Source: a virus
Taxonomy: Duplodnaviria; Heunggongvirae; Uroviricota; Caudoviricetes
Length of the DNA: 21,072 bases
Strand: one strand, 5' to 3'
Virus record (IMG/VR): IMGVR_UViG_3300014625_000019
Shown: positions 61-17,588 of the stretch, piece after piece
Layout: each line of letters opens with the position of its first letter
How positions within the stretch are numbered: the first letter of the stretch is position 1
Made by a program: the position numbers and the translations under genes
Notes under the pieces: generated by a model
What the model was told of the DNA's origin: nothing
Database searches by the model: none
The model's input: only the letters and a program-made list of their open reading frames with translations

Positions 61-471
61 TTGGCAGCATTACCTGGAAGCACTCCTTATTATCCTAAAA
101 CATACAGTTCACCAAGCTCATCAGGCTCATCCAATTCAGGTACAAATTCGCCATCGTCTTCTTCATCTGTTCGTTCGCTTCGCTCAAATGACACCGATGC
201 CTCTACGACCACAAACTCTGCTGGAATGAATGGAACTACTCGTGCAAGTAGTGGGCTGGCTTCTGATACTGAAAAGCGTAAGCGTTTGATCATGCGAGTG
301 CAGTTCGCATTACTGGATAAAGGGTTTTATAACGGCAATATAGACGGAAGTATGGGGCCTGCGACACGAACTGCTATCAAAAATTACAGAGTTGCATATG
401 GGCTTCCTACTCCAGTAAGAGAAACATTAGATGCTCAGTTATTGAACTCTTTGAATATACTTGCTCGTTAA
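61..471 (+). CDS. Small peptidoglycan-binding-domain protein (Ser-rich low-complexity linker, C-terminal PG_binding_1-like motif); start uncertain
   Basis: ORF bounded by in-frame stops at 1-6 and 49-51. C-terminal LLDKGFYNGNIDGSMGPATRTAIKNYRVAYGLPT fits the PG_binding_1 pattern (L-G-Y-x-G-x-x-D-G-x-x-G-x-x-T-x-x-A-I-x-x-F-Q-x-x-x-G-L). No ATG at the 5' end: candidate starts are TTG at 61 or ATG at 226. No obvious signal peptide. Confidence 0.45.
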   Translation: MAALPGSTPYYPKTYSSPSSSGSSNSGTNSPSSSSSVRSLRSNDTDASTTTNSAGMNGTTRASSGLASDTEKRKRLIMRVQFALLDKGFYNGNIDGSMGPATRTAIKNYRVAYGLPTPVRETLDAQLLNSLNILAR

Positions 472-489
472 AATATTAGGTAAAATAGA

Positions 490-2097
490 ATGAAGATAAA
501 ACTCTCTATTTATAAAACAAAAAGGTTTAGCGATGATATTGATCAGATTTTGAATTTGGAAAGGGTCAAAAGACCTGTTGAATTCGAGATGGAGGATGCA
601 CGAGCATATCTATATGTAAAGGAGTACATGGACCCAAAACCTCCTGAATGGACCACCTTTTTTATGGGCCAAAATCCTGGCATAGAACCTGATTTCTTCG
701 GTATGAATAGTAGCACAGGAGCAGTATTAGTTATTGAAGCTAACAATTCCAGATATCTTATTCCCTTTGGAACCGGTCATCACTTAATCAATGATGGCAG
801 CATTGTCAAAGGATTTGGGCTTAAAACAACTCTTAATAGTATAGAACATAAAAAAATTCGCAGTTTAGATAAAGGCAGTCACAACGAAACGAACCTGTTA
901 ACTCGCAGTCAGAGCAGTAAAGAAGTCGATATATACAACCTAAAAATAGATTCTGAGATGGATATTCTTACAACTCTCACAGGCACTTCGACAGAAGATA
1001 TTTTAGGAAGTAAAATTACTGGCAAAGATGCTTTTGTGATCATGCCGGATATTGAATTGAAGGCTATTCCAGCACTGTTGACCAAAATAGACTCTATTTA
1101 CTTATTACCTCTTCCTGAAGAATTCGAATGGGTTAACAATATCAAGGAGGCTGATGAACAAGAAGTTGAGATATTGGATTCGCTTTTGATTGATCGGATA
1201 AAGGAAAAAGACTTCAATGATTTATGGCTTGGAGAGCCAGAAATAGTAGACTGGGAAAATCAAATAGGCTATTGCTTTGATAAGAGACAAAGATTCATTC
1301 ATGAAACCTTATCAATATACCATGTTTGTGATTATTTTGATGGTAAGAAAACTGAAGTAACTGTTGATGAACTCAAAAAAAATTACCTGCATGTTTTGAA
1401 TGCCGATTTTGAATCAATAAAAAAATGGTCTTTATATAGGTGCCTCTATGCCGAGATAAAAGAAGGTGATCAGAACTATATTCTTCGAGACTCTATATGG
1501 TATGTTGCAGATAGGAATTTTGTATCGACTATTGATGATGAAATGAAAAAAATAATTCATTATGAGGAGTCGGACAAATTCCCTGTATATTCATATAAAC
1601 GAGAGGAGGATTATAATAAAAAACTTTGCCAAGATGATAATTCCTTTACACACATGGATCAGAAATTCATTCATCATGGTGGTGGTAAAAGTAAGATTGA
1701 ATTTTGTGATCTTATCAGAGGTCAATCAGATTTTATCCATGTAAAATATTATACTGGTTCGCAAAGTATGAGCCATCTTTTTTCACAAGGATTTATAGGT
1801 TCTGAACTTTTTATAAGTGACTCTGAATTTCGAGGCAAACTTAATGAGAAACTGCCTGCTCATATAAAATTAGCCGATCATATAAATAGACCAGATGCTA
1901 AAAAATATAAACTAGTTTTCGCCATAGCTTCTAATAAAAATCTTCCCGAAGATTTACCTTTGTTTTCTAAAGTAAACTTAAAAAATTTCCACAAGAGTAT
2001 TACCAATTTTGGGTATGAGGTCAGGATCTGCAAAATTGCTGTGGACCCAGATATTTATAAAAAGAAGCTATGTAAACCACAAAAGAACAAGCTTTAA
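490..2097 (+). CDS. Hypothetical protein, 535 aa, lysine-rich, AT-rich codon usage, no recognisable catalytic motif
   Basis: Long uninterrupted ORF with an ATG start and a weak SD (AGGT) about 9 nt upstream. No convincing Walker A, PLD HKD or canonical PD-(D/E)xK signature found by eye (PDIELK at the VIMPDIELK segment is too compact to be canonical). No transmembrane segments. Confidence 0.7.
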   Translation: MKIKLSIYKTKRFSDDIDQILNLERVKRPVEFEMEDARAYLYVKEYMDPKPPEWTTFFMGQNPGIEPDFFGMNSSTGAVLVIEANNSRYLIPFGTGHHLINDGSIVKGFGLKTTLNSIEHKKIRSLDKGSHNETNLLTRSQSSKEVDIYNLKIDSEMDILTTLTGTSTEDILGSKITGKDAFVIMPDIELKAIPALLTKIDSIYLLPLPEEFEWVNNIKEADEQEVEILDSLLIDRIKEKDFNDLWLGEPEIVDWENQIGYCFDKRQRFIHETLSIYHVCDYFDGKKTEVTVDELKKNYLHVLNADFESIKKWSLYRCLYAEIKEGDQNYILRDSIWYVADRNFVSTIDDEMKKIIHYEESDKFPVYSYKREEDYNKKLCQDDNSFTHMDQKFIHHGGGKSKIEFCDLIRGQSDFIHVKYYTGSQSMSHLFSQGFIGSELFISDSEFRGKLNEKLPAHIKLADHINRPDAKKYKLVFAIASNKNLPEDLPLFSKVNLKNFHKSITNFGYEVRICKIAVDPDIYKKKLCKPQKNKL

Positions 2098-2253
2098 ATA
2101 AATTTTTCAATGCCAGAGACGTTTGCCAGTTCATGCAGAAAATCGCTTTTGTAAGTTACAGCCCATGTATCTTGGTTTAGAACAAAGTGATGTCAAAAAA
2201 GGTTTATGTCTTGGTGGATAAGGGGCTGGGAGATTTAACCCCTTATAGAGTTG

Positions 2254-2466
2254 TTATGCCGCAATAGCTTTAAATTTTTGAGCAATGACATAATCACTCC
2301 ACCACTGCATGAGAATCACTCGTTCTGCCAGATATTCCGGGCGATTGTAAGCTGCAATTATTTCATCTTTCTTCGAGTGGGCAAGGGCCGCTTCTAAGAC
2401 ACCAGTCCTGAACTTACCAGATTCGTCTGTCGCCGTTCTCACAATAGATCTCATTCTGTTAACCAT
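2254..2466 (-). pseudogene. 3'-terminal remnant of a P4-type tyrosine integrase (about 70 codons, N-terminal about 340 codons missing)
   Basis: Translation MRSIVRTATDESGKFRTGVLEAALAHSKKDEIIAAYNRPEYLAERVILMQWWSDYVIAQKFKAIAA aligns almost residue-for-residue with the C-terminus of the intact integrase at 6212-7441. Nucleotide similarity decays upstream of about 2470. Confidence 0.6.
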
Positions 2467-2593
2467 AAGTTCACCTCCTTAAACCGTTCGAATGATTACG
2501 GCTTATACTGCCTACTTATGCTAATATCTAAGAGAAGCCATTATGGTTGTGTAAGTATACTTCATGGTTTATTTCGGATATATAAAACCATAC

Positions 2594-3490
2594 CTATGAC
2601 TGGCTGTTTTCAGCAAGAGTCTTATCATCTAAAGAATTTATTTTCGAAATTCTTTTTAACTCATTAAGATAATCAACCTCGTTTTCCAAGAACCAATGAA
2701 GAACTTTAGAGTTACCAAGTAATTTAATAATATATGACTGGATTATAACGAATTTCAACATATCTGAACCATACTCGGTTTGAAGCTTTTTTGTTTCTTC
2801 CGAAGTTGTTGCCATTTCCTGTTCCAGACGAAGTATGGTTTTTTTTATGTCCTTTTTATAGGGAGTGTTTTTCCCTTTATTTATTATCATCGATGCCGGT
2901 GTTGCATCCAAGATGCTCATTGCAAATTTTTTACTATAATTATCAAAATTAATCATTGTACCGACTGCTTCAATTTGACGAATTGGTTTCATTTTCCTCA
3001 AAACATCAAATGTAGCCTTAGGTATTGGTTTATCAGAAAGTTTCGCAATCACACTTGGATCTATACCGTTCATCACATTAGCTTTATCTTTTATAGCATC
3101 AATAGATATGCCCAAAGCAGCACTAAGTTTTTCAATTGAAACTTTTGCTAAGGACTTGATTATCATTCTATGTTCTTCAACTACATTTATATGATTGACT
3201 TGTTTGTTAGGAGTGAACGCATCATCTATGCTCGAAAGTATACATGGAGCTTTTTCTATGCCTAAATCTTTTAAAGCCTCAACCCTCAAATGGCCATCGA
3301 GTATCTTAATGGCATCTTTATCTTTGTCATAGAACACTATTATTGGTTCAATAATACCTAAGCTTTCAATTGAGGTAACTATTTGATGGTATTTATGACT
3401 TAGCTTTACATTTTCTAACAATTCCTTAGAGGGAATTAACTTGTTAGTTTCTAAATAAATAAAATTGTCGCCAAAACGTATCTGAATCAT
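2594..3490 (-). CDS. ParB/Srx-fold DNA-binding protein (ParB-like N-terminal domain with LDGHLRVEA box, predicted HTH), 298 aa
   Basis: Start codon overlaps the stop of the upstream gene (ATGA at 3487-3490). Motif IIVFYDKDKDAIKILDGHLRVEALKDLG resembles the ParB/Srx G-x-x-R-x-x-A box. Helix-turn-helix-like segment SIEKLSAALGISIDAIKDK. Confidence 0.6.
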   Translation of the reverse strand: MIQIRFGDNFIYLETNKLIPSKELLENVKLSHKYHQIVTSIESLGIIEPIIVFYDKDKDAIKILDGHLRVEALKDLGIEKAPCILSSIDDAFTPNKQVNHINVVEEHRMIIKSLAKVSIEKLSAALGISIDAIKDKANVMNGIDPSVIAKLSDKPIPKATFDVLRKMKPIRQIEAVGTMINFDNYSKKFAMSILDATPASMIINKGKNTPYKKDIKKTILRLEQEMATTSEETKKLQTEYGSDMLKFVIIQSYIIKLLGNSKVLHWFLENEVDYLNELKRISKINSLDDKTLAENSQS

Positions 3491-4383
3491 TTTGATGCCT
3501 CTTTGTTTATTGGATTGAGGATCTGAGATGGCTGTTCTGATAGATTCTCTTGTTCAAGTATATTTTGAAAGCTTTTATTCATCATTATGATGTTAAAAAT
3601 CTCATTTACTATCAGCAAATTAGTTTTAATAAATTTAGAGTTGTTATAAACAGATTTATGTTCAGCGATACTATTTTCATAAAGCTCAATTAACTCCTCA
3701 GCAGTCATTCTTTTTGATGGTTTGTGATAATAAAACCCGGCTGCTTTTGCACCTTTATTCCCAATTGTTCGCTGATTTAGAATGTGTTTTATCTTTATAA
3801 TGTCTCGGCTTTTTATTAATTTTTTATCATATGCTTCGGTAAGAATATCTTGTGCTTCTTCAGTTTCACATCTTGCAAATTGCACTGCGAGATACAGAGG
3901 CAAATTCCCCCGTTCGACTGCAGAGAGAAGTTTATGCTCTCCCTTATCAAGAAGCATATTTATACTGCTCACCCAGTTCGATGAATACCCAGTAATCTCA
4001 CTTATTTCGGAGTCTGAAAGTCCTCTGTTTTTCATATCTTTTATTATCTGTAATAACTCATTGGAACGTGGTCTCCTCCTTGCAATGTTTTCAACCAAAC
4101 TCATAACATAAGCATCTTCTTCTGATACATCTCTTATAATTGCAGGAATAATGGTCTCACCTAATGCAACGAGAGCCTCTATTCTCCCTTGGCCACAAAT
4201 TAAAGCATATTTGAAGTCGTCTTCATCAATCGCTCTTACGCTTATAGGCTTGCTTAATCCTCTTTTTTTTATGCTTTCCTTAATTTCTTCATGCACTACC
4301 TTATTTCTAGTGCGCGGGTTAAGAAATTTTATTTTGGCAATTTCAATTTGGATTATTGGGAATTCATTTGATTCAGGCAGCAT
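3487..4383 (-). CDS. ParB/Srx-fold DNA-binding protein (ISVRAIDEDDFKYALICGQGRIEA box, predicted HTH), 298 aa; paralogue of the downstream gene
   Basis: Start overlaps the 3' end of the recombinase gene by 11 nt. SD-like GAGGG upstream of the ATG. ParB-like box ICGQGRIEALVALG. HTH-like LSDSEISEITGYSSNWVSSI. Confidence 0.6.
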   Translation of the reverse strand: MLPESNEFPIIQIEIAKIKFLNPRTRNKVVHEEIKESIKKRGLSKPISVRAIDEDDFKYALICGQGRIEALVALGETIIPAIIRDVSEEDAYVMSLVENIARRRPRSNELLQIIKDMKNRGLSDSEISEITGYSSNWVSSINMLLDKGEHKLLSAVERGNLPLYLAVQFARCETEEAQDILTEAYDKKLIKSRDIIKIKHILNQRTIGNKGAKAAGFYYHKPSKRMTAEELIELYENSIAEHKSVYNNSKFIKTNLLIVNEIFNIIMMNKSFQNILEQENLSEQPSQILNPINKEASK

Positions 4384-5929
4384 ATAGTTCCCTCACTTTC
4401 ATTCGAGTAATAATTTGTAGAAGTTTATCCAGATTATCAAATCTATAGAGATCTAATCGAATGTTGTTTGTTTCCGTCATGCACATTTTACTATATTCGT
4501 TTTCAATCTTTGGTATGATATAAAAATCAAGTGGTGTAATATTTTGTGAATCCATTCGTATAACAATTGTTATGTCTGCTTTCTGTGAGTTATCAAACCG
4601 GACTTTCCATCTAAGTTTACCCGATTTCATATGTGTGCATTTGGTAATAAGGACGGAAATTAAAAACTCATCATTGATGTAAAGCATTGGTGCATATTTA
4701 TATTCGTCTATATAGCAGTTGCTTTTTATAATTCCCCCCTTAAAATCCTCAATTATGCCTGAGTAAAATGATCTTAGTGCTTCATTTATTTGGATATAGC
4801 TGTAATCATGTTCTGGCTTATAACCAATCAAAGTATATGCTCTTAAAAGACCACCAAATCGGGTTCTGTAAACAGAAGATGAAGGGCCTGTATCATCTTC
4901 ATCAATGATAAAGCCAGATAGTTTTCCATTAGTTTCTAATTTTTGTTTTAGCTTTTCTAAAAGCTCTTCATTAGTCAAATGTACGGATCGGAGCTGAATT
5001 ATTTCTTGAGCTTTATTATATTTTTTCTTTGAAATAATGGGTTTGTATGCCTTGTCGCATCTAACCCATTCATTTTTTGGGTTTTTTACAAGCCTACTTT
5101 TTAGTTTAGATGAGGTTTTGTTATATATGTTATTTCCAATATATTTTTCATTTGTTAAGATTTGATGTATTTTTGCACGAGTCCATAATGTTCCATTTTC
5201 TGCAGGTATATTCTGTTCGTTTAGTCTCTCAGCAATAATGAATTCTGGCATGTTATCATCTATAAAGAGATCATAGATGCTATTTACAATTTTTATCTCA
5301 TTTTTTGGTCCAGGAATTAATATTACCCTATCTGTTTGAATACTCTTTCTTTTGCGGAAGCCCAATATTTCTTTAGCTATGCCATTTTCATCTACTAAAA
5401 GACGTCTCAGCCCATAACCAGCCATTCCGCCTTGATGATAACCAAGCTTTATTAAATTTACTTGCCCTATAAATACCTTTTCTGATAAATTCCTGCTGTG
5501 ATATGCAGCACTAGATCTTTTTATGTTCAGTATAACAGAAGACTCTAAAGGGAAATCTTTAGTGGGAATAGGTTCAGAACAGTATATAAGATCTACACCG
5601 TTTCTCTCAAATAGAAAGGAATAATATGCAGCTTCATCACTATTTTGAAAACGACCAAAACGGCTCACATCATAAAATAATACAGCCTGTATATCTATTT
5701 TCTTTTGTTCTACATCACTAAGTAACTGCTGCAAAGAATGCCGGCCTATGATACTGACTCCGCTCTTACCTGCATCATCGTAGGTATAAGCGATTTCCAT
5801 ATTGTTCTTTTCAGCATAATCTTTGATATATTCGGACTGATTATGTAAAGAATATTGCTGATGGTCGGTAGACATCCTCAAGTACTGTGCGACCCTAACT
5901 TTATGATTTTTATCATTTTCTCTAGCCAT
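4373..5929 (-). CDS. Large serine recombinase (resolvase/invertase-type catalytic domain plus recombinase domain), 518 aa
   Basis: N-terminal YLRMSTDHQ motif with the catalytic serine, followed by the DDAGKSG and VSRFGR motifs of the resolvase domain. Recombinase-domain-like WTRAKIHQILTNEKYIGNNIY. SD GAGG about 8 nt upstream of the ATG. No CxxC pairs seen in the C-terminal region. Confidence 0.8.
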   Translation of the reverse strand: MARENDKNHKVRVAQYLRMSTDHQQYSLHNQSEYIKDYAEKNNMEIAYTYDDAGKSGVSIIGRHSLQQLLSDVEQKKIDIQAVLFYDVSRFGRFQNSDEAAYYSFLFERNGVDLIYCSEPIPTKDFPLESSVILNIKRSSAAYHSRNLSEKVFIGQVNLIKLGYHQGGMAGYGLRRLLVDENGIAKEILGFRKRKSIQTDRVILIPGPKNEIKIVNSIYDLFIDDNMPEFIIAERLNEQNIPAENGTLWTRAKIHQILTNEKYIGNNIYNKTSSKLKSRLVKNPKNEWVRCDKAYKPIISKKKYNKAQEIIQLRSVHLTNEELLEKLKQKLETNGKLSGFIIDEDDTGPSSSVYRTRFGGLLRAYTLIGYKPEHDYSYIQINEALRSFYSGIIEDFKGGIIKSNCYIDEYKYAPMLYINDEFLISVLITKCTHMKSGKLRWKVRFDNSQKADITIVIRMDSQNITPLDFYIIPKIENEYSKMCMTETNNIRLDLYRFDNLDKLLQIITRMKVRELYAA

Positions 5930-6211
5930 GCACGAAACCTCATGGATGATTCAATACAATGTAGAGAATAAAATTGATCAATTTTTAACCAAATTCAACT
6001 CTTTTATCATCGATTAGAGCGAATTTGGTAAATCTTCGAGGTGTATGATAATCGAGAAGAGATGTGAATTATTTAGCTGATATGATCTACAGCTTTCGTT
6101 ATGTGGCCTCAAGGTAGTCATTCGTAAATGGCTATGCTTAGTCCACATAGGTTTATAGTGTGATTATTAATTCTTTAACTAAATCAAGATAGTTAACCCA
6201 TCATGGAAGAG

Positions 6212-7441
6212 TTATGCGGCAATAATTTTGTATTTTTGAGACGAAACAAAGTCACTCCACCACTGCATGAGAATCACCCGTTCTGTGAGATACTCTGCAC
6301 GATTGTAGGCTGCAATTATTTCATCTTTCTTCGAGTGGGCAAGGGCGGCTTCTAAGACATCAGTCCTAAATTTGCCAGACTCCTCCGCAGCCGTTCTGGC
6401 GATTGATCGCATACCGTGAGCTACAAGCTCACCTCCGAAACCCATACGGATTATGGCCGCATTAGCTGTTTGTTCATGCATGTGATTGAGTGGAGCTTTG
6501 ATACTGGGGAAAACCCACTCTCTATGCCCACTGATGGCTTTCATTAAATCCAAAACTCGCAAAGCTTCTTTGCTCAGTGGAACTTTGTGAGGCTTCTTCA
6601 TTTTCATAAACTCCGCTGGGATGTTCCACATGCCAGTTTCAATATCAATATCTGACCATCTTGTGCGAACAGCCTCACCAGGACGAACCCAAGTTAGCAA
6701 TTGCCATTCAATCAGCAATCGTGTCTCCATACGGACTGATGCGTTGTTTAACACTGTAAGGAAGCGGGGGAGTTCGGTTGGGGGCAGGGCTGGCATGTTC
6801 TGTTTCTTCGGCTTACTAAATCTCTGGGCAAGATTGTCAGCCGGATTGAATTCTATGAGTTCTTCTGTTGCTGCATAGCGGAAAATTTCATTCAGGCGGG
6901 ATATGATGCGGCGAAGTGTTTCAAGGACACCTCGTTTTTCTATGGGGTCTAAATGCTGTTTAAGCATTTTAGGCCGAATCTCTTTAATGGGAGTATCACC
7001 CAATGTGGGAAAGATATTTCTCTCCAGGCTTCGCCAGATGTCTTCTGCATGGTCTTGTGAGATACCTGAGGTCTTTACCTTCTCGTCCAACCATTTCCTT
7101 GCTACGGCTTGAAGAGTGTGTTCAATAGCACTCTTTAATGCCTTCGCCTTATTATTGTTATGGACTTGGGGATCAACACCATTTGCCAGTAAGGAGAGAT
7201 TTTCATCTCGTAAGGCTCTGGCTTTTGCAAGGGTAAGGTGAGGATAGGTCCCAAGGCTCATTTTTGTTCTTTTCTTGCTTACTGGTACTGCATACCTGAA
7301 ATACCAATTTTTCTTGCCACCTTTCGCCAAAGGAGCGATTCGTAGAATCAAACCATCCCCGTCGAACAAGTTGATTTCTTTATCGGCTGGCTTGGTGCTT
7401 TTGATTTCAGTGTCAGTGAGTTTCTTAGCGATTTTTGCCAT
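6212..7441 (-). CDS. int: P4-type tyrosine integrase (site-specific recombinase, tRNA/tmRNA-targeting family), 409 aa
   Basis: N-terminal arm-binding-like segment (LFDGDGLILRIAPLAKGGKKNWYFRY). C-terminal catalytic region with the R...H-x-x-R...Y arrangement (HGMRSIARTAA, AAYNRAEY). Architecture parallels CP4-57 IntA as I recall it. Lies directly next to the ssrA 3'-end fragment. Confidence 0.85.
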   Translation of the reverse strand: MAKIAKKLTDTEIKSTKPADKEINLFDGDGLILRIAPLAKGGKKNWYFRYAVPVSKKRTKMSLGTYPHLTLAKARALRDENLSLLANGVDPQVHNNNKAKALKSAIEHTLQAVARKWLDEKVKTSGISQDHAEDIWRSLERNIFPTLGDTPIKEIRPKMLKQHLDPIEKRGVLETLRRIISRLNEIFRYAATEELIEFNPADNLAQRFSKPKKQNMPALPPTELPRFLTVLNNASVRMETRLLIEWQLLTWVRPGEAVRTRWSDIDIETGMWNIPAEFMKMKKPHKVPLSKEALRVLDLMKAISGHREWVFPSIKAPLNHMHEQTANAAIIRMGFGGELVAHGMRSIARTAAEESGKFRTDVLEAALAHSKKDEIIAAYNRAEYLTERVILMQWWSDFVSSQKYKIIAA

Positions 7442-7537
7442 TTGGGACCCTCGGTTTTTGGACCCATCTTAGAGGGTCCCATTCAGGGTGCCATAACTTA
7501 TAGTTCTCAGCAATTCGCACTGGACGACAATAGACGT

Positions 7538-7570
7538 AAAAAAGCCCGCAGAGCTTGTGCTGTGCGGGCT
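7538..7570 (-). terminator. Rho-independent terminator (GC-rich hairpin plus T-run on the minus strand) downstream of the ssrA fragment
   Basis: Minus strand reads AAGCCCGCACAGCACAAGCTCTGCGGGCTTTTTT: a 7-bp GC-rich stem (7544-7550 with 7563-7569) followed by six T. Confidence 0.5.
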
Positions 7571-7605
7571 TAGTAGACTTCATTGTACTTCAAACAACTA
7601 AAAAG

Positions 7606-7637
7606 TGGTGGAGCTGGCGGGAGTTGAACCCGTGTCC
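7606..7637 (-). other. ssrA: 3'-terminal fragment of ssrA (tmRNA): T-arm, acceptor 3' strand and CCA; putative att core / junction repeat
   Basis: Reverse complement GGACACGGGTTCAACTCCCGCCAGCTCCACCA matches my recollection of the E. coli tmRNA 3' end (GGACGCGGGTTCAACTCCCGCCAGCTCCACCA) at 31 of 32 positions. Sequence further 5' in RNA sense (window coordinates above 7637) does not continue as tmRNA, so this is a fragment, not a gene. Confidence 0.55.
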
Positions 7638-8064
7638 ATAGTTATGTAATTCATTGAATTTAAATAGCCAAATATTGTTGATTTTACAAGCGGCTCTTTT
7701 GCGGAACTTTTTCTGTCCTGTTACTGTCTTACTATTTATTTTAAAATAGTTTCATTTGGAATTAATGGTTTGTGGTTGCAGTTTCGGAGATAGATAGCAT
7801 TTTTTGCTAAAAAATATTTTTATAAAAAAATGTGTGTAAAAATGATGTTATGCACAGATTTATGCACAGAGGCTTTGTGATAAACCAGATTGTTTTGGAT
7901 AAGTTTGTTTTTTTGTGATTTGTCAACAATATTATTGACTCTTGTTACTAAAGTGAGTGTTTTCTAAGGTGGTCAGAAGTTGTCCCTTCATGTAATCTTA
8001 TTAGCCATAAAGAACAAAAAATAATTCAACATCATTACCAACTATTTGTAAGATAAGGTTTTTA

Positions 8065-8880
8065 ATGTTGCAGCCAGCAAAAAAAGCATCAGTTATTAGC
8101 GCGCGGCTAACTAAATACCTCAAAGATGGAGTGAGGATTGATGACTTTAGCTTTAGAAGGATGTTACGTGAGATTGAAGCACTTAGAGATCCTGTCTCTG
8201 AGGACTATCTTTTAGCGTTGGTCTATGGTGCACATGGCCAAGTGAATGAGGCGATAGGCTTCTTTGAGCGTTCCTTGCAGGTATGCCATAATGAGGTTGT
8301 TGCAAAGAATTTTCTTGTTTTCTTGTCAGATTACGGTACGTTGAAGAAAAGCTTTGAAACAAGCATTAAGCTTGCTGAAAGCTTCATATCCCCGTTTATT
8401 TATCTTCAAGCTTATGAAAACTCCCTCTTTATGGGGAAGATGGCGTTGGCGGAGAAGTATTTCCAGTCATACTCTAAATTGTTCGGAGATAAGGAGCCTG
8501 AAAAAATGGACAACAATTTTGATGAAGTTGTTTCCCAGGTCGAATCCTTTAAGCAACGTGCCGATCTTTCTGGTTTAGAATATGAACTTATTTTCAATAA
8601 TGTAGCCAATGTCATGGATTCTCAGAAGGTTCATCTTTCGGGAATGCGTTTTTATAATATTTCGGAAGAGAAAGTGAATGCGATTGTATTCATGACAAAG
8701 TCTTCTGATGCTGAACAAATCGCTGATATGAATATTGAGCTTGCTTTTTCAATGGCTGAGCACGATTGTTTAGTCGGTAAAGATTTTGCTGTTTGGTTTG
8801 AATGTAAAGACACACATATTGAGCAGAATGCTATCTCCGAATTAGGTCTGATTACCCGGAGGGTTGCACATGCCGGTTAA
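8065..8880 (+). CDS. Hypothetical protein, 271 aa (first gene of a two-gene moron operon)
   Basis: ATG start preceded by an AAGG SD. Long AT-rich leader upstream (7640-8064). Overlaps the downstream gene by 11 nt. No recognisable motif. Confidence 0.6.
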   Translation: MLQPAKKASVISARLTKYLKDGVRIDDFSFRRMLREIEALRDPVSEDYLLALVYGAHGQVNEAIGFFERSLQVCHNEVVAKNFLVFLSDYGTLKKSFETSIKLAESFISPFIYLQAYENSLFMGKMALAEKYFQSYSKLFGDKEPEKMDNNFDEVVSQVESFKQRADLSGLEYELIFNNVANVMDSQKVHLSGMRFYNISEEKVNAIVFMTKSSDAEQIADMNIELAFSMAEHDCLVGKDFAVWFECKDTHIEQNAISELGLITRRVAHAG

Positions 8881-9253
8881 TAGTCAAGATTTTCTCGGTT
8901 TTGCAAAAGACTGTCATCAACGTAATGACGAAATCGGCTATCGAAATGCTATAGCAAGATCCTACTATGGCGCTTACCATCATGTCTTGCCTTGTATGGT
9001 AAACGGGCCGAAAGACAGTCATCAGGGGCTAATCAATTATTTGCAGGGCGATGCTTCAAGAGGAAGTGAAGTATATGAAGCTAGATATCTAAAAGGGATT
9101 AGTTTTATCCTGAGTCAACTTAAAGCTCAGAGGATTGTTGCAGACTATCGACTTGATCAATCGGTCACTTCTAAACAGTCTGAAGTTGCGATTCTAACAA
9201 CTGAGAGGCTCTTTGCTAAGTGTACGGAAATGCTTAAATCGAGAGCCTCCTAA
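8870..9253 (+). CDS. Hypothetical small protein, 127 aa, with an R-x6-H motif (possible HEPN-like fold)
   Basis: ATG at 8870 preceded by GGAGGG (8857-8862) at 7-nt spacing; the track ORF begins at an in-frame TTG at 8864. Motif AIARSYYGAYHH matches the minimal HEPN R-x(4-6)-H signature, but it is N-proximal, so the assignment is tentative. Confidence 0.55.
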   Translation: MPVNSQDFLGFAKDCHQRNDEIGYRNAIARSYYGAYHHVLPCMVNGPKDSHQGLINYLQGDASRGSEVYEARYLKGISFILSQLKAQRIVADYRLDQSVTSKQSEVAILTTERLFAKCTEMLKSRAS

Positions 9254-9258
9254 TTGAT

Positions 9259-9283
9259 AAAGCCACTTAAGTGGCTTTTTTTG
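9259..9283 (+). terminator. Rho-independent terminator hairpin (AAAGCCAC-TTAA-GTGGCTTT plus T-run), possibly bidirectional
   Basis: Perfect 8-bp inverted repeat with a 4-nt loop followed by TTTTT on the plus strand and an A-run on the other side. The int stop codon (9267-9269) lies in the loop. Confidence 0.5.
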
Positions 9284-10439
9284 TGATATTGCTGGTCGTA
9301 TTACCGTCATATTCCTTTAAATATGAACCATAATGACGAAATAACATTTCCGGCCCTTTATGCCCCATTTGAGCTGCAAGCCAAAACAGGTTTGCTCCCC
9401 GGCTGATATGGCGGGTGGCGAATGTATGCCTAGTTTGATATGGATTTCTGTAACGAATACCTGCTTTTCGCAATGTTGGCACCCATGCTTTTTTCCTGAT
9501 TGCATCAGCACTTGCCCAAGGCTTATTGGTCTTTGGATCTTCAAAGACAGTAGTATCCTTCATGAATGTAAATGGCTTCTGATTTATCAGCGCCAACATT
9601 GCCTCTTCTGTCAGTTCAACTTTCCGAGTACCTGCTTTTGTCTTTGTCCCTTTGATAACACCGACAACACTTGCGCTCTGGACATGGGCAGTTTTTCCAA
9701 CAAAGTCGATATCACGCCATCGAAGGGCACATAATTCAGAACTACGCAGGCCTGTATGTATAGCGAACCGGAACAGATTTTCCCATTGTTTGTTTCCGGC
9801 TGCTGCTAGTAATGCATCAACTTCTGCTGGTGATAGCGGATCAACTACGTAGCTGCTTTCTGCTTCTGACTTATCACTTTGGTAGCGCGAAGCTGTTACT
9901 AACGATACGGGGTTAATTTGAAGTACCCCATCGGTCACGGCTTCATCAAGTGCTGACCGCAGGAAAGATAACTGGTTGCGAATTGTTTTTAAGGTCGTTT
10001 TCTGATTTTGAATCCACGCTTTCAGGGTTGCTGGTGTTAATTCACTTGCAGGGCAAATGTGAAGTGAGGCTAACGCACTACGGCATTTTTTATAGCCACC
10101 AATCGTAGAGGGTGAAAGTTTTCTTGTTTCGCAGATTTCAAGATATTCGTCCAGGTACATCTTTACCGTTTTGCCTGCAGCAGCATTACCAAAAATTTTC
10201 AAACGAGCAGAACGGGGAAAATATTCTGCATAAATGAATGTTCCCCTTTCGATCTTATTATGGATTTCGCCGAGTGTACGCTCGGCGTATTTAATGTTCT
10301 TTGGTGTTACTTCCAGATTGGAAAGCGGCTCACGACATCTAACTCCTTTGTAGGTGAAAGTTATATTGATCGTTTCTCCCTGGCGGTGTTTCCTGATTGT
10401 TACGCCGCGCGGTAGTTTGAGCAGTTTTGTCTGGCCCAT
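9267..10439 (-). CDS. int: Lambda-type tyrosine integrase, 390 aa
   Basis: Catalytic signature GLRSSELCALRW (Arg), RHTFATRH (His-x-x-Arg), LFRHYGSY (Tyr). N-terminal arm-binding-type region. 5' end overlaps xis, as in lambda. Confidence 0.85.
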   Translation of the reverse strand: MGQTKLLKLPRGVTIRKHRQGETINITFTYKGVRCREPLSNLEVTPKNIKYAERTLGEIHNKIERGTFIYAEYFPRSARLKIFGNAAAGKTVKMYLDEYLEICETRKLSPSTIGGYKKCRSALASLHICPASELTPATLKAWIQNQKTTLKTIRNQLSFLRSALDEAVTDGVLQINPVSLVTASRYQSDKSEAESSYVVDPLSPAEVDALLAAAGNKQWENLFRFAIHTGLRSSELCALRWRDIDFVGKTAHVQSASVVGVIKGTKTKAGTRKVELTEEAMLALINQKPFTFMKDTTVFEDPKTNKPWASADAIRKKAWVPTLRKAGIRYRNPYQTRHTFATRHISRGANLFWLAAQMGHKGPEMLFRHYGSYLKEYDGNTTSNITKKAT

Positions 10440-10606
10440 TTTGCAACCTCACTAAGATCAATCCACCTCTCCTTAACGCCTTCAACCTTTAAAACCTGAA
10501 CACCTTCACGCCAAACACCGCGCTGTACACGTTTGTTTATTGCTTCAGGAGTTTCGCCAGTTTCTTTGCAATAAGTTGAGATAGGAACACAATCGAGGTT
10601 CAGCAT
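10400..10606 (-). CDS. xis: Excisionase (Xis-like small DNA-binding protein), about 68 aa
   Basis: Small basic protein immediately upstream of and overlapping int. Internal ATG at 10606 has GGAG 6 nt upstream; the track ORF extends to 10645 but lacks an SD there. Loose resemblance to lambda Xis at the N-terminus. Confidence 0.6.
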   Translation of the reverse strand: MLNLDCVPISTYCKETGETPEAINKRVQRGVWREGVQVLKVEGVKERWIDLSEVAKWARQNCSNYRAA

Positions 10607-10647
10607 ACGTTTCTCCATTATCCCGTCTGCACACGGGAGCAACATTA

Positions 10648-11514
10648 TTAACGAATAGTGTCGTTACTTTGAAGTACAGCAAATGCCATTAATACTTCTA
10701 AAGTATATCTTCTATAAAATTTAACAAAACCAACATAGAAAACATAGACGAAGAAAAAGCTAAGCATTATTGAAAGTAAACTATAAAGATAATCACTATG
10801 AGTACATAATCGATAAATAAAGGTTGGAACTGATACCCAAAATGAAATTATAAAGATTAAACATATGTTTCTGCAAAAACCATATAATGCAACATAGTTT
10901 TGAATTTTTGTTTGATGTTGTTTTGAAAACTCATAAACATAATGATATGCCAATCTGAAGAGATCATCATCAAGTCCGTTTTTATCTTGTAATAATTGGC
11001 GATTTGTTATGAACTTTTTCTCATAACCTTCTTTGATCATTAACCATGTTGTATTAGCTAAATGAAATGGTAGAGATTGAGAATAACATAGTTTTTGTGT
11101 TATAAAATCCCATAGTATTATTGGGCATAATACGCATTTGATTATGCGATTCTTTATTTTTGTTTTTTTATCAGCGCTTCTCTCATCGCATGATGGGCTA
11201 CAAATGCTTTCTGAGGTATCTATCAATTTTTTAAATAGATATTTGGAAGGATATCCTAATTCTTTATTCATGTATTTTTCGATAAAAAATGCTGACGTGA
11301 TAGAAATAAAATGTCCAGCTATATAAGATATAATAACTATTGAAGCGTAGTTCAAAATGCCAAAGATTTGACTTTGACCTCTGAGCAATTCACTTAAGTC
11401 AATAACAATATCTAGATCGAATGTCAAACCACAGAAATACATTAATAGGATAAAAAAACCACCTGGTATTAAATATCCAAGAAAGTCATAGAATGAGAAT
11501 GGATTTTGATTCAT
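10648..11514 (-). CDS. Predicted integral membrane protein (about 4 TM segments, Cys-containing central soluble region), unknown function; AT-rich moron
   Basis: Hydrophobic stretches FLGYLIPGGFFILLMYFCGLTF, IFGILNYASIVIISYIAGHFISITSAFFI, ICLIFIISFWVSVPTFIY, LLSIMLSFFFVYVFYVGFV. ATG at 11514 with GGAG 7 nt upstream; the track ORF starts at TTG 11538. Stop abuts the xis start. Confidence 0.6.
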   Translation of the reverse strand: MNQNPFSFYDFLGYLIPGGFFILLMYFCGLTFDLDIVIDLSELLRGQSQIFGILNYASIVIISYIAGHFISITSAFFIEKYMNKELGYPSKYLFKKLIDTSESICSPSCDERSADKKTKIKNRIIKCVLCPIILWDFITQKLCYSQSLPFHLANTTWLMIKEGYEKKFITNRQLLQDKNGLDDDLFRLAYHYVYEFSKQHQTKIQNYVALYGFCRNICLIFIISFWVSVPTFIYRLCTHSDYLYSLLSIMLSFFFVYVFYVGFVKFYRRYTLEVLMAFAVLQSNDTIR

Positions 11515-11622
11515 TGTTGCTCTCCAATAATTTTTCAATTTGTAATATAACCTATATCTATATGTTAATAAATTACTTATATGTTCTTTTATGGCAGAGT
11601 TTGAATTCGTACGTGCTGATTT

Positions 11623-15840: not shown

Positions 15841-16410
15841 ATGAGGCTAATCGTGGGTAAGCATCACTGGAAAATAGAAAAACAGCCTGAGTGGTACGTG
15901 AAAGCTGTCAGAAAAACTATCGCGGCGTTGCCGGGTGGTTACGCTGAAGCGGCTGATTGGCTCGATGTAACAGAAAACGCTTTATTCAACCGCCTTCGTG
16001 CAGATGGCGATCAGATTTTCCCGCTGGGATGGGCAATGGTTTTACAGCGTGCTGGTGGCACTCACTTCATTGCTGATGCTGTGGCGCAGTCTGCAAATGG
16101 CGTCTTTGTGTCTCTTCCTGACGTCGAGGATGTGGACAACGCCGATATTAACCAGCGTCTGCTGGAAGTCATTGAACAGATCGGCAGTTATTCAAAACAG
16201 ATTCGTTCAGCAATCGAAGACGGTGTAGTGGAACCGCATGAGAAGACAGCAATTAACGACGAGCTGTATCTCTCAATTTCGAAGCTGCAGGAGCATGCAG
16301 CACTTGTCTACAAAATTTTTTGCATTTCAGAAAGTAATGACGCCCGCGAGTGTGCAGCTCCGGGCGTCGTGGCGTCGATTGCTTCTGGTTGTGGAGAAAC
16401 TAACGCATGA
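15841..16410 (+). CDS. Putative phage regulatory protein (CII/CP76-like), 189 aa; C-terminus may be altered by a deletion junction
   Basis: Position immediately downstream of cro and weak resemblance to the 186-type CII family (recollection only). Its 3' end abuts a portal fragment. Confidence 0.4.
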   Translation: MRLIVGKHHWKIEKQPEWYVKAVRKTIAALPGGYAEAADWLDVTENALFNRLRADGDQIFPLGWAMVLQRAGGTHFIADAVAQSANGVFVSLPDVEDVDNADINQRLLEVIEQIGSYSKQIRSAIEDGVVEPHEKTAINDELYLSISKLQEHAALVYKIFCISESNDARECAAPGVVASIASGCGETNA

Positions 16411-17263
16411 ACAGTTTAACAACACACTACCGAAGCTTAACAGTAGCTGGGAGCCGGTCTATCAGGTCACATTCCCGGATGGCTCCACGGATGTACTGAG
16501 CCAGGAGGATATCTGGCATGTGCGCACGCTGACGCTGGACGGACTGGTGGGGCTGAATCCCATCGCCTATGCCCGCGAGGCAATATCGCTGGCGGCAGCG
16601 ACCGAAGAGCACGGGGCCAGACTGTTCAGCAATGGCGCGGTGACGTCGGGTGTGTTGCGTACAGAGCAGACGCTGTCAGATCAGGCTTACGAGCGCCTGA
16701 AGAAAGATTTTGAGGAGCGTCACACCGGGCTTGGCAATGCTCACCGCCCGATGATCCTTGAGATGGGGCTGGACTGGAAGTCGATGGCGCTGAACGCCGA
16801 GGACAGCCAGTTCCTGGAAACCCGCAAGTTTCAACTTGAAGAAATCTGTCGTCTGTTCCGGGTACCGTTGCACATGGTGCAGAACACCGATCGCGCCACC
16901 TTCAACAATATCGAAGAACTGGGGCTCGGATTTATCAACTATTCACTGGTGCCGTATCTGACCCGCATCGAACAGCGGATCAACACCGGACTGGTACGAA
17001 AAAGTAAGCAGGGCGTTTATTACGCCAAATTTAACGCCGGGGCGTTACTGCGCGGGGATATGAAGTCCCGTTTTGAAGCCTACGCCACCGGGATTAACTG
17101 GGGAATTTACTCTCCCAATGACTGCCGCGACCTGGAAGATATGAATCCGCGTCCCGGTGGTGATGTCTATCTCACACCGATGAACATGACCACGAAACCC
17201 TCCGATGGCAGTAAAGCCGGTAAGCAGAAGGATAACGCCAATGCAGACGAAACAACGTCTTGA
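16400..17263 (+). pseudogene. HK97-family phage portal protein, 5'-truncated fragment (C-terminal about 285 codons only)
   Basis: Portal-like segment (GLGNAHRPMILEMGLDWKSMALNAEDSQFLETRKFQLEEICRLFRVPLHMV). The upstream part of the track ORF is an alternate frame of the CII-like gene, so roughly the first 120-130 residues of a normal portal are absent. Confidence 0.55.
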
Positions 17264-17588
17264 TGTACCGCTGAGTCTGAAATCTGTCAGTGACTCCGGT
17301 GAGTTTGAAGGGTATGGCTCCGTCTTTGGTGTAAAGGACAGCCACGATGATGTGGTGATGTCCGGGGCATTTGCTGCTTCCCTGCGGGCGTGGAGTGACA
17401 GAAAAGCGTTACCTGCGCTGCTCTGGCAGCACCGCATGGATGAACCCATCGGTGTTTACACCGAAATGAAGGAAGACGATGTCGGGCTTTACGTCAGGGG
17501 ACGGTTGCTTATTGATGATGATCCCCTCGCAAAACGCGCACATGCACACATGAAGGCCGGTTCGTTACGGCGACGGCGCAGACGCTGA
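17241..17588 (+). pseudogene. HK97-family prohead protease, 3'-truncated fragment
   Basis: ATG at 17241 with AAGGA SD. N-terminal protease-like motifs (FEGYGSVFGVKDSHDDVVMSGAFAASL; LLWQHRMDEPIGVY; EDDVGLYVRGRL). The frame ends abruptly in RRRRRR* where the conserved GLSIG-type region is expected. Confidence 0.5.

What the first reader, a model, noticed from the sequence alone, without database searches (positions are those of the whole stretch)
8065..9253. Two-gene moron operon between the prophage att and int, with a HEPN-like R-x6-H motif in the small protein
Two plus-strand genes (271 aa and 127 aa, overlapping by 11 nt) sit in the att-to-int gap, convergent with int. They have their own AT-rich upstream region and share a hairpin terminator with int. 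The small protein carries AIARSYYGAYHH, which fits the minimal HEPN RNase signature R-x(4-6)-H, though the motif is closer to the N-terminus than usual, so this is tentative. The larger protein has no motif I can recognise. The att-int gap is a classic slot for prophage-encoded defence, toxin-antitoxin or abortive-infection cargo. The pairing is unlike the HEPN/MNT pairs I know, so it could be an undescribed two-component system.
Basis: partly seen in the sequence, partly recalled or inferred. Interest (0 to 1): 0.7.

Follow-up and report, generated by a model that had tools for sequence, protein, structure and literature searches.

The report
Prophage HEPN–TPR two-gene cargo cassette
A defective E. 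coli prophage carries, between its attachment site and integrase, a strictly co-inherited gene pair (a repeat-protein plus a small HEPN nuclease-like protein) that hops between cargo slots of many phages and looks like an uncharacterised toxin–antitoxin or anti-phage module.

Summary
The anatomy is real. Gene A (8065-8880, 271 aa) and gene B (8870-9253, 127 aa) overlap by 11 nt. They lie between a 3' fragment of ssrA (the att core, 7606-7640) and the prophage integrase (9267-10439, minus strand).

B is a true HEPN protein of the AF0298/UPF0332 type, shown by a profile match to solved HEPN structures and a confident four-helix model. The canonical position reads R88-x3-D92-Y93, and an invariant H51 comes from the helix 2-3 insert, as described for this family.

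A is a TPR-like solenoid with a small alpha/beta C-terminal domain. It is not the MNT nucleotidyltransferase that usually partners such HEPN proteins.

The pair is strictly linked: 67 of 67 testable viral loci have A directly upstream of B, and the two proteins co-diverge. It occupies at least four different prophage cargo slots, including the P2 old/tin hotspot, and also non-prophage chromosomal sites. It matches no PADLOC model and is "unknown function" in PHROGs.

Best reading: a toxin–antitoxin-like, probably anti-phage, module. B is the effector and A the neutraliser or sensor. Function is inferred, not shown.

The parts
7606..7640 (-). 3' fragment of ssrA (tmRNA): the att core repeat marking the left end of the prophage
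   Evidence: Sequence tggtggagctggcgggagttgaacccgtgtcc. Rfam partial tmRNA hit at 7606-7653, E 5e-6. ARAGORN finds no whole tmRNA in the window. The full ssrA lies at the other prophage end in SFE8. The 31-33 nt core is shared with genomes that carry other cargo.
7639..9303 (.). Swappable cargo interval between the att core and the conserved part of int
   Evidence: Genomes with the same int (about 97% identical from 9304 onward) and the same att core have unrelated DNA across this whole interval.
7641..8064 (+). AT-rich non-coding leader of the cassette; promoter presumed but not identified
   Evidence: GC 0.35 over 7501-8000. Only weak sigma-70-like matches.
7922..7939 (.). Inverted repeat GTCAA-N8-TTGAC, 143 nt upstream of gene A; candidate operator or -35 element
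   Evidence: The same inverted repeat, with a 3-8 nt spacer, sits at -130 to -143 in 14 of 64 distinct upstream regions, against 0.28 expected from shuffles. All 14 are cassettes in att-int slots, next to different integrases.
8065..8880 (+). Gene A, 271 aa: TPR-like helical solenoid (about residues 4-187), small alpha/beta C-terminal domain (about 188-248), disordered tail. Proposed neutraliser or sensor.
8858..8863 (+). Shine-Dalgarno GGAGGG for gene B, inside the 3' end of gene A (translational coupling)
   Evidence: Read directly from the sequence. The genes overlap by 4-14 nt or are separated by at most about 15 nt in relatives.
8870..9253 (+). Gene B, 127 aa: AF0298/UPF0332-type HEPN protein. 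Proposed effector (RNase or RNA binder).
   Evidence: Profile hits to PDB HEPN proteins 9xbd (E 9e-6) and 2hsb/AF0298 UPF0332 (E 0.009). Model pLDDT 93.8. Foldseek top hits are HEPN domains. JGI and NCBI name relatives UPF0332 or HEPN. Invariant E21, R25, R30, Y32, Y33, H51, R88, Y93.
9259..9278 (+). Hairpin AAAGCCAC-TTAA-GTGGCTTT followed by a T-run: likely intrinsic terminator of the A-B operon. It overlaps the int stop codon.
9267..10439 (-). Prophage tyrosine integrase (context), convergent with the cassette
   Evidence: Pfam Arm-DNA-bind_2 plus Phage_integrase. Present in 412 E. coli genomes, of which 44 carry the cassette.
10400..10645 (-). Excisionase (context)
   Evidence: PHROG 2917 excisionase, E 8e-45.

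Best explanation
The cassette is an autonomous, horizontally mobile two-gene module of the toxin-antitoxin / abortive-infection type, carried as prophage cargo.

Gene B encodes a small HEPN protein of the AF0298/UPF0332 branch. It most likely acts as a dimeric RNA-targeting effector: an RNase using the variant site R88/D92/Y93 plus H51, E21 and R25, or at minimum an RNA binder that blocks translation.

Gene A is translated first and is coupled to B. It encodes a non-enzymatic TPR scaffold with a small C-terminal alpha/beta domain. A binds B and keeps it inactive. This replaces the MNT nucleotidyltransferase that neutralises related HEPN toxins by AMPylating the conserved tyrosine.

The proposed trigger is an event during infection by another phage, such as a phage protein captured by the TPR groove or loss of A. 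This frees B, which arrests the cell and so protects the lysogen population and the resident prophage.

Shown here: the folds, the family assignment, the strict linkage and order of the genes, the mobility between cargo slots, and the absence of an MNT partner.

Inferred: toxicity of B, neutralisation by A, the trigger, and the anti-phage outcome.
For: - **B is HEPN of the AF0298 type**. It has every family hallmark described in PMC3710099: R kept, H replaced by D, an alternative invariant His from the helix 2-3 insert (H51), and a conserved Tyr (Y93) right after the motif.
- **B keeps a polar constellation.** Over 59 distinct sequences down to 28% identity, E21, R25, R30, H51, R88 and Y93 are 100% conserved and D92 and H37 98%. 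This argues for a retained active or ligand site.
- **A has no such constellation**, no enzyme-family match, and a TPR fold. This fits a binder or sensor.
- **Operon layout is antitoxin-first.** A is upstream and the Shine-Dalgarno and ATG of B lie inside A. PMC3710099 describes this layout for MNT-HEPN dyads.
- **Linkage is strict.** 67 of 67 testable IMG/VR loci and all gammaproteobacterial genome loci have A directly upstream of B. B was never seen without an upstream partner gene.
- **The two proteins co-diverge.** Spearman 0.83 over 63 distinct pairs. A evolves faster: mean identity 28% against 44% for B.
- **The pair moves between cargo slots.**
  - att-int gaps next to at least 3 integrase types.
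  - The Q antiterminator to lysis slot.
  - The tail-chaperone to tape-measure slot.
  - The gpQ-gpA slot of a P2-like Vibrio phage. This is the documented old/tin anti-phage hotspot (PMC9122126).
  - Stand-alone between frr and an MFS transporter gene in Gilliamella.
- **The slot is variable in E. coli.** The att-int interval is swapped for other cargo beside the same int.
- **The cassette survives prophage decay.** It is intact here although the prophage has lost about 21 kb.
Against: - There is no experimental or expression evidence.
- No convincing promoter was found upstream.
- RNase activity has not been demonstrated here, and the canonical catalytic His is absent. PMC3710099 only proposes the alternative site.
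- A-B binding was not modelled, because no multimer prediction was available.
- A lacks a DNA-binding domain, unlike most type II antitoxins.
- Neither protein matches a PADLOC v2 defence model.
- Neither protein was found in the DefensePredictor supplements, though several of those files were truncated when stored.
- The pair is absent from 72,556 plasmids, which is unusual for a classical addiction module.
- Faster evolution of A could simply reflect lax constraint on TPR repeats.
Confidence: 0.55

Rival explanations
1. The pair is a plain addiction (post-segregational killing) toxin-antitoxin module. It stabilises the prophage or a chromosomal segment and has no role against other phages.
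For: The same architecture evidence applies as for the best explanation. The pair also occurs stand-alone between housekeeping genes in Gilliamella. It persists intact in a decaying prophage.
Against: It is absent from all 72,556 PLSDB plasmids. It is strongly enriched in prophage cargo slots, including a documented defence hotspot. A has no DNA-binding autoregulatory domain.
Confidence: 0.2
2. The pair is a non-toxic accessory function. B is a catalytically inert, RNA- or ligand-binding HEPN adaptor and A is a TPR scaffold. Together they modulate host or phage gene expression, for example lysogenic conversion or control of lysis or late genes.
For: The canonical HEPN His is missing. PMC3710099 notes that some HEPN domains act non-catalytically, for example MtlR. 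Many copies sit in the Q-lysis or tail-gene regions and are transcribed with late genes.
Against: The constellation E21/R25/R30/H51/R88/D92/Y93 is invariant. The pair appears in unrelated slots of unrelated phages and outside prophages, which argues against a role tied to one phage pathway. The same int carries unrelated cargo in its place.
Confidence: 0.15
3. The pair is a counter-defence module. The phage uses it to disarm a host immune system, for example by degrading a signalling RNA or nucleotide, or by sequestering a host factor through the TPR.
For: It is phage-borne. HEPN domains act on RNA, and cyclic-oligonucleotide-activated HEPN nucleases such as Csm6 are known (own knowledge). TPRs bind proteins.
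Against: The pair is retained in a defective prophage that cannot replicate and at stand-alone chromosomal sites. Placement next to att-int, where cargo can be expressed from the lysogen, suits lysogen-expressed genes.
Confidence: 0.06

Closest known systems
AF0298-like / UPF0332 'HEPN-T' family (PDB 2hsb; also 9xbd/9xbc 'HEPN domain-containing protein'), as defined in Anantharaman et al. 2013 (PMC3710099)
   Same: Size of about 125 aa and a four-helix HEPN fold. The R of the motif is kept with D in place of H. An alternative conserved His comes from the helix 2-3 insert. A conserved Tyr follows the motif, and helix 2 carries R-x-Y-Y. Profile E-values are 9e-6 and 0.009.
   Different: Members of that family are typically stand-alone, or paired or fused with MNT nucleotidyltransferases, largely in archaea and thermophiles. 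This clade is proteobacterial, mostly prophage-borne, and paired with a TPR protein.
Type VII HEPN-MNT (HepT/MntA) toxin-antitoxin systems (PMC7641770, PMC11586414, PMC13000451)
   Same: A two-gene operon with the neutraliser upstream and the small HEPN protein downstream. A conserved Tyr sits beside the R-motif. In HepT, a Tyr near the RNase motif is the AMPylation site.
   Different: There is no MNT: A has no nucleotidyltransferase match or motif. B lacks the Rx4-6H histidine and belongs to a different HEPN branch from DUF86/HepT. Neutralisation would have to be by binding, not by AMPylation.
Other HEPN modules linked to repeat proteins noted in PMC3710099: AbiU2 with a Sel1-repeat gene, and LA2681 HEPN fused to or in an operon with TPR
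   Same: A HEPN effector genetically coupled to a helical-repeat (TPR/Sel1) partner in conflict-system contexts.
   Different: Those are different HEPN families with a canonical Rx4-6H. No sequence relationship to A or B was detected here.
Prophage and satellite defence hotspots: P2 old/tin locus and P4 psu-int locus (Rousset et al. 2022, PMC9122126)
   Same: Small, variable, horizontally swapped cargo cassettes at fixed positions of temperate phages. One homologous pair sits in the gpQ-gpA hotspot of a P2-like Vibrio phage.
   Different: The E. coli copy is in the att-int gap of a lambdoid/Mu-tail hybrid prophage at ssrA. The main text of that paper does not describe such a pair among the systems it tested.
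DefensePredictor DS-28 (HEPN family nuclease plus a hypothetical protein; PMC13092281)
   Same: An E. coli two-gene system combining a small HEPN protein with an unannotated partner of about 250 aa, validated as anti-phage.
   Different: The sequences are unrelated, the HEPN motif is canonical (RNSVAH), and the gene order is opposite. It is not the same system.

Membership tests
HEPN superfamily (gene B) | Four-helix up-down bundle of the HEPN type | tested here: met
   Model pLDDT 93.8 with helices 5-17, 21-42, 71-93 and 101-126 plus an insert. Foldseek top hits are 2hsb, sacsin HEPN 3o10, 1ufb, 2q00, 1o3u, AbiV and HepT (E-values modest, 0.02-1).
HEPN superfamily (gene B) | Canonical Rx4-6H motif at the end of helix 3 | tested here: not met
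The end of helix 3 reads R88-I-V-A-D92-Y93. R is 100% conserved, the H position is absent, D is 98% conserved.
AF0298-like / UPF0332 HEPN-T family (gene B) | Sequence-profile similarity to family members | tested here: met
   hmmsearch of the family profile against PDB: 9xbd E 9e-6, 9xbc E 5e-5, 2hsb (UPF0332 AF0298) E 0.009. JGI names relatives 'UPF0332 family', and one relative carries PF05168. The window protein itself has no Pfam hit.
AF0298-like / UPF0332 HEPN-T family (gene B) | [quoted passage not shown] | tested here: met
   R88 and D92 as above. H51 is invariant and lies in the 43-70 insert. It aligns to the SSH of 9xbd.
Type VII HEPN-MNT (HepT/MntA) TA system | Partner is a minimal nucleotidyltransferase (MNT) that AMPylates the HEPN tyrosine | tested here: not met
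   A has no NTase match in Pfam, NCBIfam or PADLOC. It has a TPR fold and no conserved G-S / DxD-type residues.
Type VII HEPN-MNT (HepT/MntA) TA system | Conserved Tyr adjacent to the R-motif | tested here: met
   Y93 is 100% conserved. Whether it is modified cannot be tested here.
TPR repeat proteins (gene A) | Tandem helix-turn-helix repeats forming a solenoid, with a TPR sequence signature | tested here: inconclusive
Type II toxin-antitoxin module | Toxin is toxic alone and is neutralised by direct binding of the co-transcribed partner | not testable with these tools
   Only the genetic architecture fits.
Known anti-phage defence systems (PADLOC-DB v2.0.0) | Significant match of the components to a system model | tested here: not met
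   A has no hit. B has only HEPN_IX at E 0.0013 over 40 residues.

The most novel reading that the evidence does not exclude
This is a previously unnamed, widespread prophage-borne abortive-infection system. A minimal TPR sensor directly gates an AF0298-type HEPN nuclease that uses a non-canonical active site (R-x3-D-Y plus a His from the helix 2-3 insert). The TPR protein has functionally replaced the MNT AMPylase of type VII TA systems. This would be a compact sensor-effector pair whose trigger is a phage protein bound in the TPR groove.
Probability: 0.35. Interest if true: 0.7.

Novelty: new variant of a known kind. Interest (0 to 1): 0.58.

Why it matters
HEPN proteins of the UPF0332/AF0298 branch are abundant but have no demonstrated biochemical activity that I know of. 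Their variant active site has only been proposed.

A tightly linked, mobile, prophage-borne pair in E. coli and its relatives offers a tractable genetic system for three questions. First, is this branch toxic, and is it an RNase? Second, how can a non-enzymatic TPR partner substitute for the MNT antitoxin? Third, is this another lysogen-protecting immune module?

The pair also gives a candidate function to two PHROG families annotated as unknown (17809 and 5176). It documents the att-int gap beside this ssrA-targeting integrase as a cargo-swapping site.

Tried and rejected
- **R-x6-H as a HEPN signature.** Rejected. 57% of shuffles of B match the pattern, A matches too, and it lies in the wrong helix.
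- **A as a hidden MNT or other enzyme.** Rejected. There are no family hits and no conserved catalytic-type residues.
- **Identity with DefensePredictor DS-28 (HEPN plus hypothetical).** Rejected: the sequences are unrelated. The accessions and peptide strings of A and B are absent from that paper's supplements, though some files were truncated.
- **PADLOC and NCBIfam.** Nothing meaningful.
- **Literature searches.** Searches for UPF0332+HEPN, for the PDB code 9XBD, for the protein accession, and for HEPN+TPR+antitoxin+prophage found no paper describing the pair.
- **afdb50 fold library.** Not available.
- **Viral-contig scan with the diverse A alignment.** Failed because no conserved stretch was available.
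- **hhalign of the A family against distant partners.** Against the roughly 250-aa upstream partners in Azospirillum and Variovorax the result was only suggestive (E 0.007 and 0.026). Against the 183-aa Rufibacter partner it was negative.
- **Promoter search upstream of A.** Only weak matches.
- **Plasmid search for B.** No match.
- **Second word-indexed protein search with the A alignment.** Added only three proteins: two full-length homologues and one fragment.

Full report
**Where the window comes from**

The window is an E. coli chromosomal segment at the ssrA integration hotspot. Region 7400-9400 is 99.5% identical to strain SFE8 and others.

From left to right the window holds:
- the cargo of a P4-int type island;
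- its integrase (6212-7441, minus strand);
- a 3' fragment of ssrA on the minus strand (7606-7640);
- an AT-rich gap;
- gene A (8065-8880);
- gene B (8870-9253);
- a hairpin (9259-9278);
- a second tyrosine integrase (9267-10439, minus strand) with its excisionase (10400-10645);
- the early region of a prophage.

ARAGORN finds no complete tmRNA in the window. In SFE8 the intact ssrA lies about 41 kb away at the other end of the same prophage. The fragment at 7606-7640 is therefore the duplicated att core, and the A-B pair is the outermost cargo of the prophage, between att and int. A strong GGAGGG Shine-Dalgarno for B lies inside the end of A.

A profile of 30 homologues matches three solved structures: the HEPN proteins 9xbd (E 9e-6) and 9xbc, and the UPF0332 protein AF0298 (2hsb, E 0.009). 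Some sources name relatives 'UPF0332 family' or 'HEPN domain-containing'.

The AlphaFold model is confident (pLDDT 93.8). It has four long helices plus an insert between helices 2 and 3. Its best structural matches are HEPN domains: 2hsb, sacsin, TT1696, TM0613, AbiV and HepT. The Foldseek E-values are modest.

That regular expression is found in 57% of shuffles of B, and also in A. The canonical HEPN motif sits at the end of helix 3. There B reads R88-I-V-A-D92-Y93.

This matches what Anantharaman et al. 2013 (PMC3710099) describe for the AF0298-like branch:
- the R is kept and the H is replaced by D;
- a second, strongly conserved His comes from the insert between helices 2 and 3 and may form an alternative active site;
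- a conserved Tyr is proposed as the MNT modification site, and AMPylation of a Tyr near the RNase motif was later shown for HepT (PMC7641770).

In B, H51 lies in the insert and is invariant. Over 59 distinct sequences reaching 28% identity, E21, R25, R30, Y32, Y33, H51, L81, R88 and Y93 are 100% conserved, and D92 and H37 are 98% conserved. B is therefore a bona fide member of this branch, with a preserved polar constellation. Whether that constellation is catalytic is inference.

**Gene A is a TPR-like scaffold, not an MNT**

A has only sub-threshold TPR hits in Pfam and nothing in NCBIfam or PADLOC.

Its model (pLDDT 87) shows:
- about ten helices forming a solenoid (residues 4-187);
- a small alpha/beta unit (strands 191-199, 204-211 and 242-247; helix 216-231);
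- a disordered tail.

An exhaustive HMMER search found 78 representative clusters at E up to 0.001. Most are full-length homologues of about 250-260 aa, alongside a few short fragments and several long multi-repeat TPR proteins that match only the repeat region. The family has very few conserved polar residues. This argues against an enzyme and for a binding protein.

**The pair is one unit**

In the IMG/VR scan seeded with B, 68 loci were found. In 67 of them A lies directly upstream on the same strand. The single exception is cut at the contig end.

All gammaproteobacterial loci from the species-level genome scan have the pair: Pseudocitrobacter, Enterobacter, Aeromonas and three Gilliamella. 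More distant B homologues also have an overlapping or abutting upstream ORF of about 250 aa with TPR-like sequence. These are in a Comamonadaceae MAG, Variovorax and Azospirillum. Homology of those ORFs to A is only suggestive. A Rufibacter homologue has a different, 183-aa partner.

Across 63 distinct pairs, A and B identities co-vary (Spearman 0.83). A diverges faster: mean identity is 28%, against 44% for B.

**The pair is mobile cargo**

It occupies several unrelated positions:
- att-int gaps beside at least three integrase types;
- the Q-antiterminator/DUF968 to lysis slot;
- the tail-chaperone to tape-measure slot, including Klebsiella phage ST405-OXA48phi1.3;
- the gpQ-gpA interval of a P2-like Vibrio phage, which is the old/tin anti-phage hotspot defined by Rousset et al. 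2022 (PMC9122126);
- a stand-alone site in Gilliamella, between frr and an MFS transporter gene.

No plasmid in PLSDB carries the pair.

In E. coli, 412 of 5,426 complete genomes have this integrase but only 44 have the cassette. Genomes with the same int and att core carry unrelated DNA over the whole interval 7639-9303. Examples are a three-gene cassette with a STAS-like protein and a single 259-aa protein.

**Interpretation**

The most economical reading is a toxin-antitoxin-like, probably abortive-infection, module. B would be the RNA-targeting effector. A, translated first, would be its stoichiometric inhibitor and possibly a sensor, standing in for the MNT AMPylase of related HEPN systems.

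The supporting evidence is architectural and contextual. No step of the mechanism was tested.

Points against are the missing canonical His, the lack of an identifiable promoter, the absence of a DNA-binding domain in A, and the absence of any match to known defence models.

Rival readings cannot be excluded: pure addiction, a non-toxic regulatory adaptor, or counter-defence.

**Novelty**

Both proteins fall in PHROG families of unknown function (17809 and 5176). No PADLOC model fits. The literature and supplement searches found no description of the pair. The superficially similar DefensePredictor DS-28 is unrelated. HEPN-repeat-protein linkages exist for other HEPN families (AbiU2 with Sel1, LA2681 with TPR). 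I therefore class this as a new variant of a known kind rather than something categorically new.

Noticed in passing
window 16428-17568 (junctions near 16430 and 17567/17568): The prophage in this window is defective. Relative to the intact SFE8 prophage it lacks about 12.6 kb (replication, Q, lysis, terminase and the portal N-terminus) and about 8.3 kb (capsid through tape measure). This leaves a truncated portal (16238-17263) and a truncated prohead protease (17205-17588) fused to baseplate genes. The A-B cassette, int and xis remain intact.
   Followed up: yes
window 10648-11538 (minus strand): A 296-aa protein with several long hydrophobic segments lies next to xis in a very AT-rich stretch (GC 0.29-0.33). 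It belongs to PHROG 12528 (unknown function) and has a weak match to the type VI-B CRISPR accessory membrane protein Csx27 (PADLOC E 1.4e-5). Some prophages with the same int have other genes here (yfdS plus a small ORF in an ST131 strain), so it may be a second cargo gene.
   Followed up: partly
window 61-5929: The neighbouring P4-int island carries low-GC cargo (0.31-0.35). It holds a DUF6119 protein (490-2097), two tandem ParB_N/RepB-like proteins (2594-3490 and 3487-4383, minus strand) and a large serine recombinase (4373-5929, minus strand). SFE8 has different cargo here: an ATP-binding protein plus a receiver-domain protein. No PADLOC system matched.
   Followed up: partly
window 7922-7939; also L002, L010, L039, L042, L046 about 130-143 nt upstream of gene A: An inverted repeat GTCAA-N3-8-TTGAC sits at a fixed distance upstream of gene A in cassettes found in att-int slots, next to different integrases. 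It is present in 14 of 64 distinct upstream regions, against 0.28 expected by chance. It could be an operator or promoter element that travels with this sub-clade of the cassette. It is absent from cassettes in other slots.
   Followed up: partly
L094 2066-3936 and L095 2102-3972 (E. coli PMV-1, Ecol_545); L093 3140-3919 (ST131 strain 751): The same att-int slot beside the same integrase holds other unannotated cargo. One version is a three-gene plus-strand cassette (303 aa hypothetical, 108 aa STAS-like, 199 aa hypothetical). Another is a single 259-aa hypothetical protein. The homology break on the int side falls inside the last ~37 nt of int (window 9304).
   Followed up: partly
L033-L037 (IMG/VR), about 1.5 kb between gene B and int: In one group of att-int cassettes the integrase lies 1584 bp downstream of B instead of 20-55 bp. 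An extra cargo insertion therefore seems to sit between the pair and int.
   Followed up: no
L021 6001-6396 (Klebsiella phage ST405-OXA48phi1.3, MK416008.1): The GenBank record annotates the HEPN gene as two short CDS (6053-6184 and 6181-6396). The reading frame 6001-6396 is in fact open and encodes an intact 131-aa homologue of B. This is an annotation error, not a pseudogene.
   Followed up: yes
window 7538-7615 (minus strand): Rfam reports a partial IsrM sRNA match (56 bits, E 2.8e-14, far below the gathering score of 376) just downstream of the ssrA fragment. It overlaps a terminator-like hairpin at 7542-7556. It is probably conserved ssrA-flanking or island-border sequence rather than a real IsrM gene.
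   Followed up: no
L001 34497-35908 and L092 16782-18671 (strain SFE8, same prophage when intact): The intact version of this prophage carries further likely defence cargo. There is a KwaB-like gene pair between Q and the holin, and a DUF262-domain protein near the ssrA-proximal end. One prophage may therefore hold several cargo slots filled with candidate immune genes.
   Followed up: no
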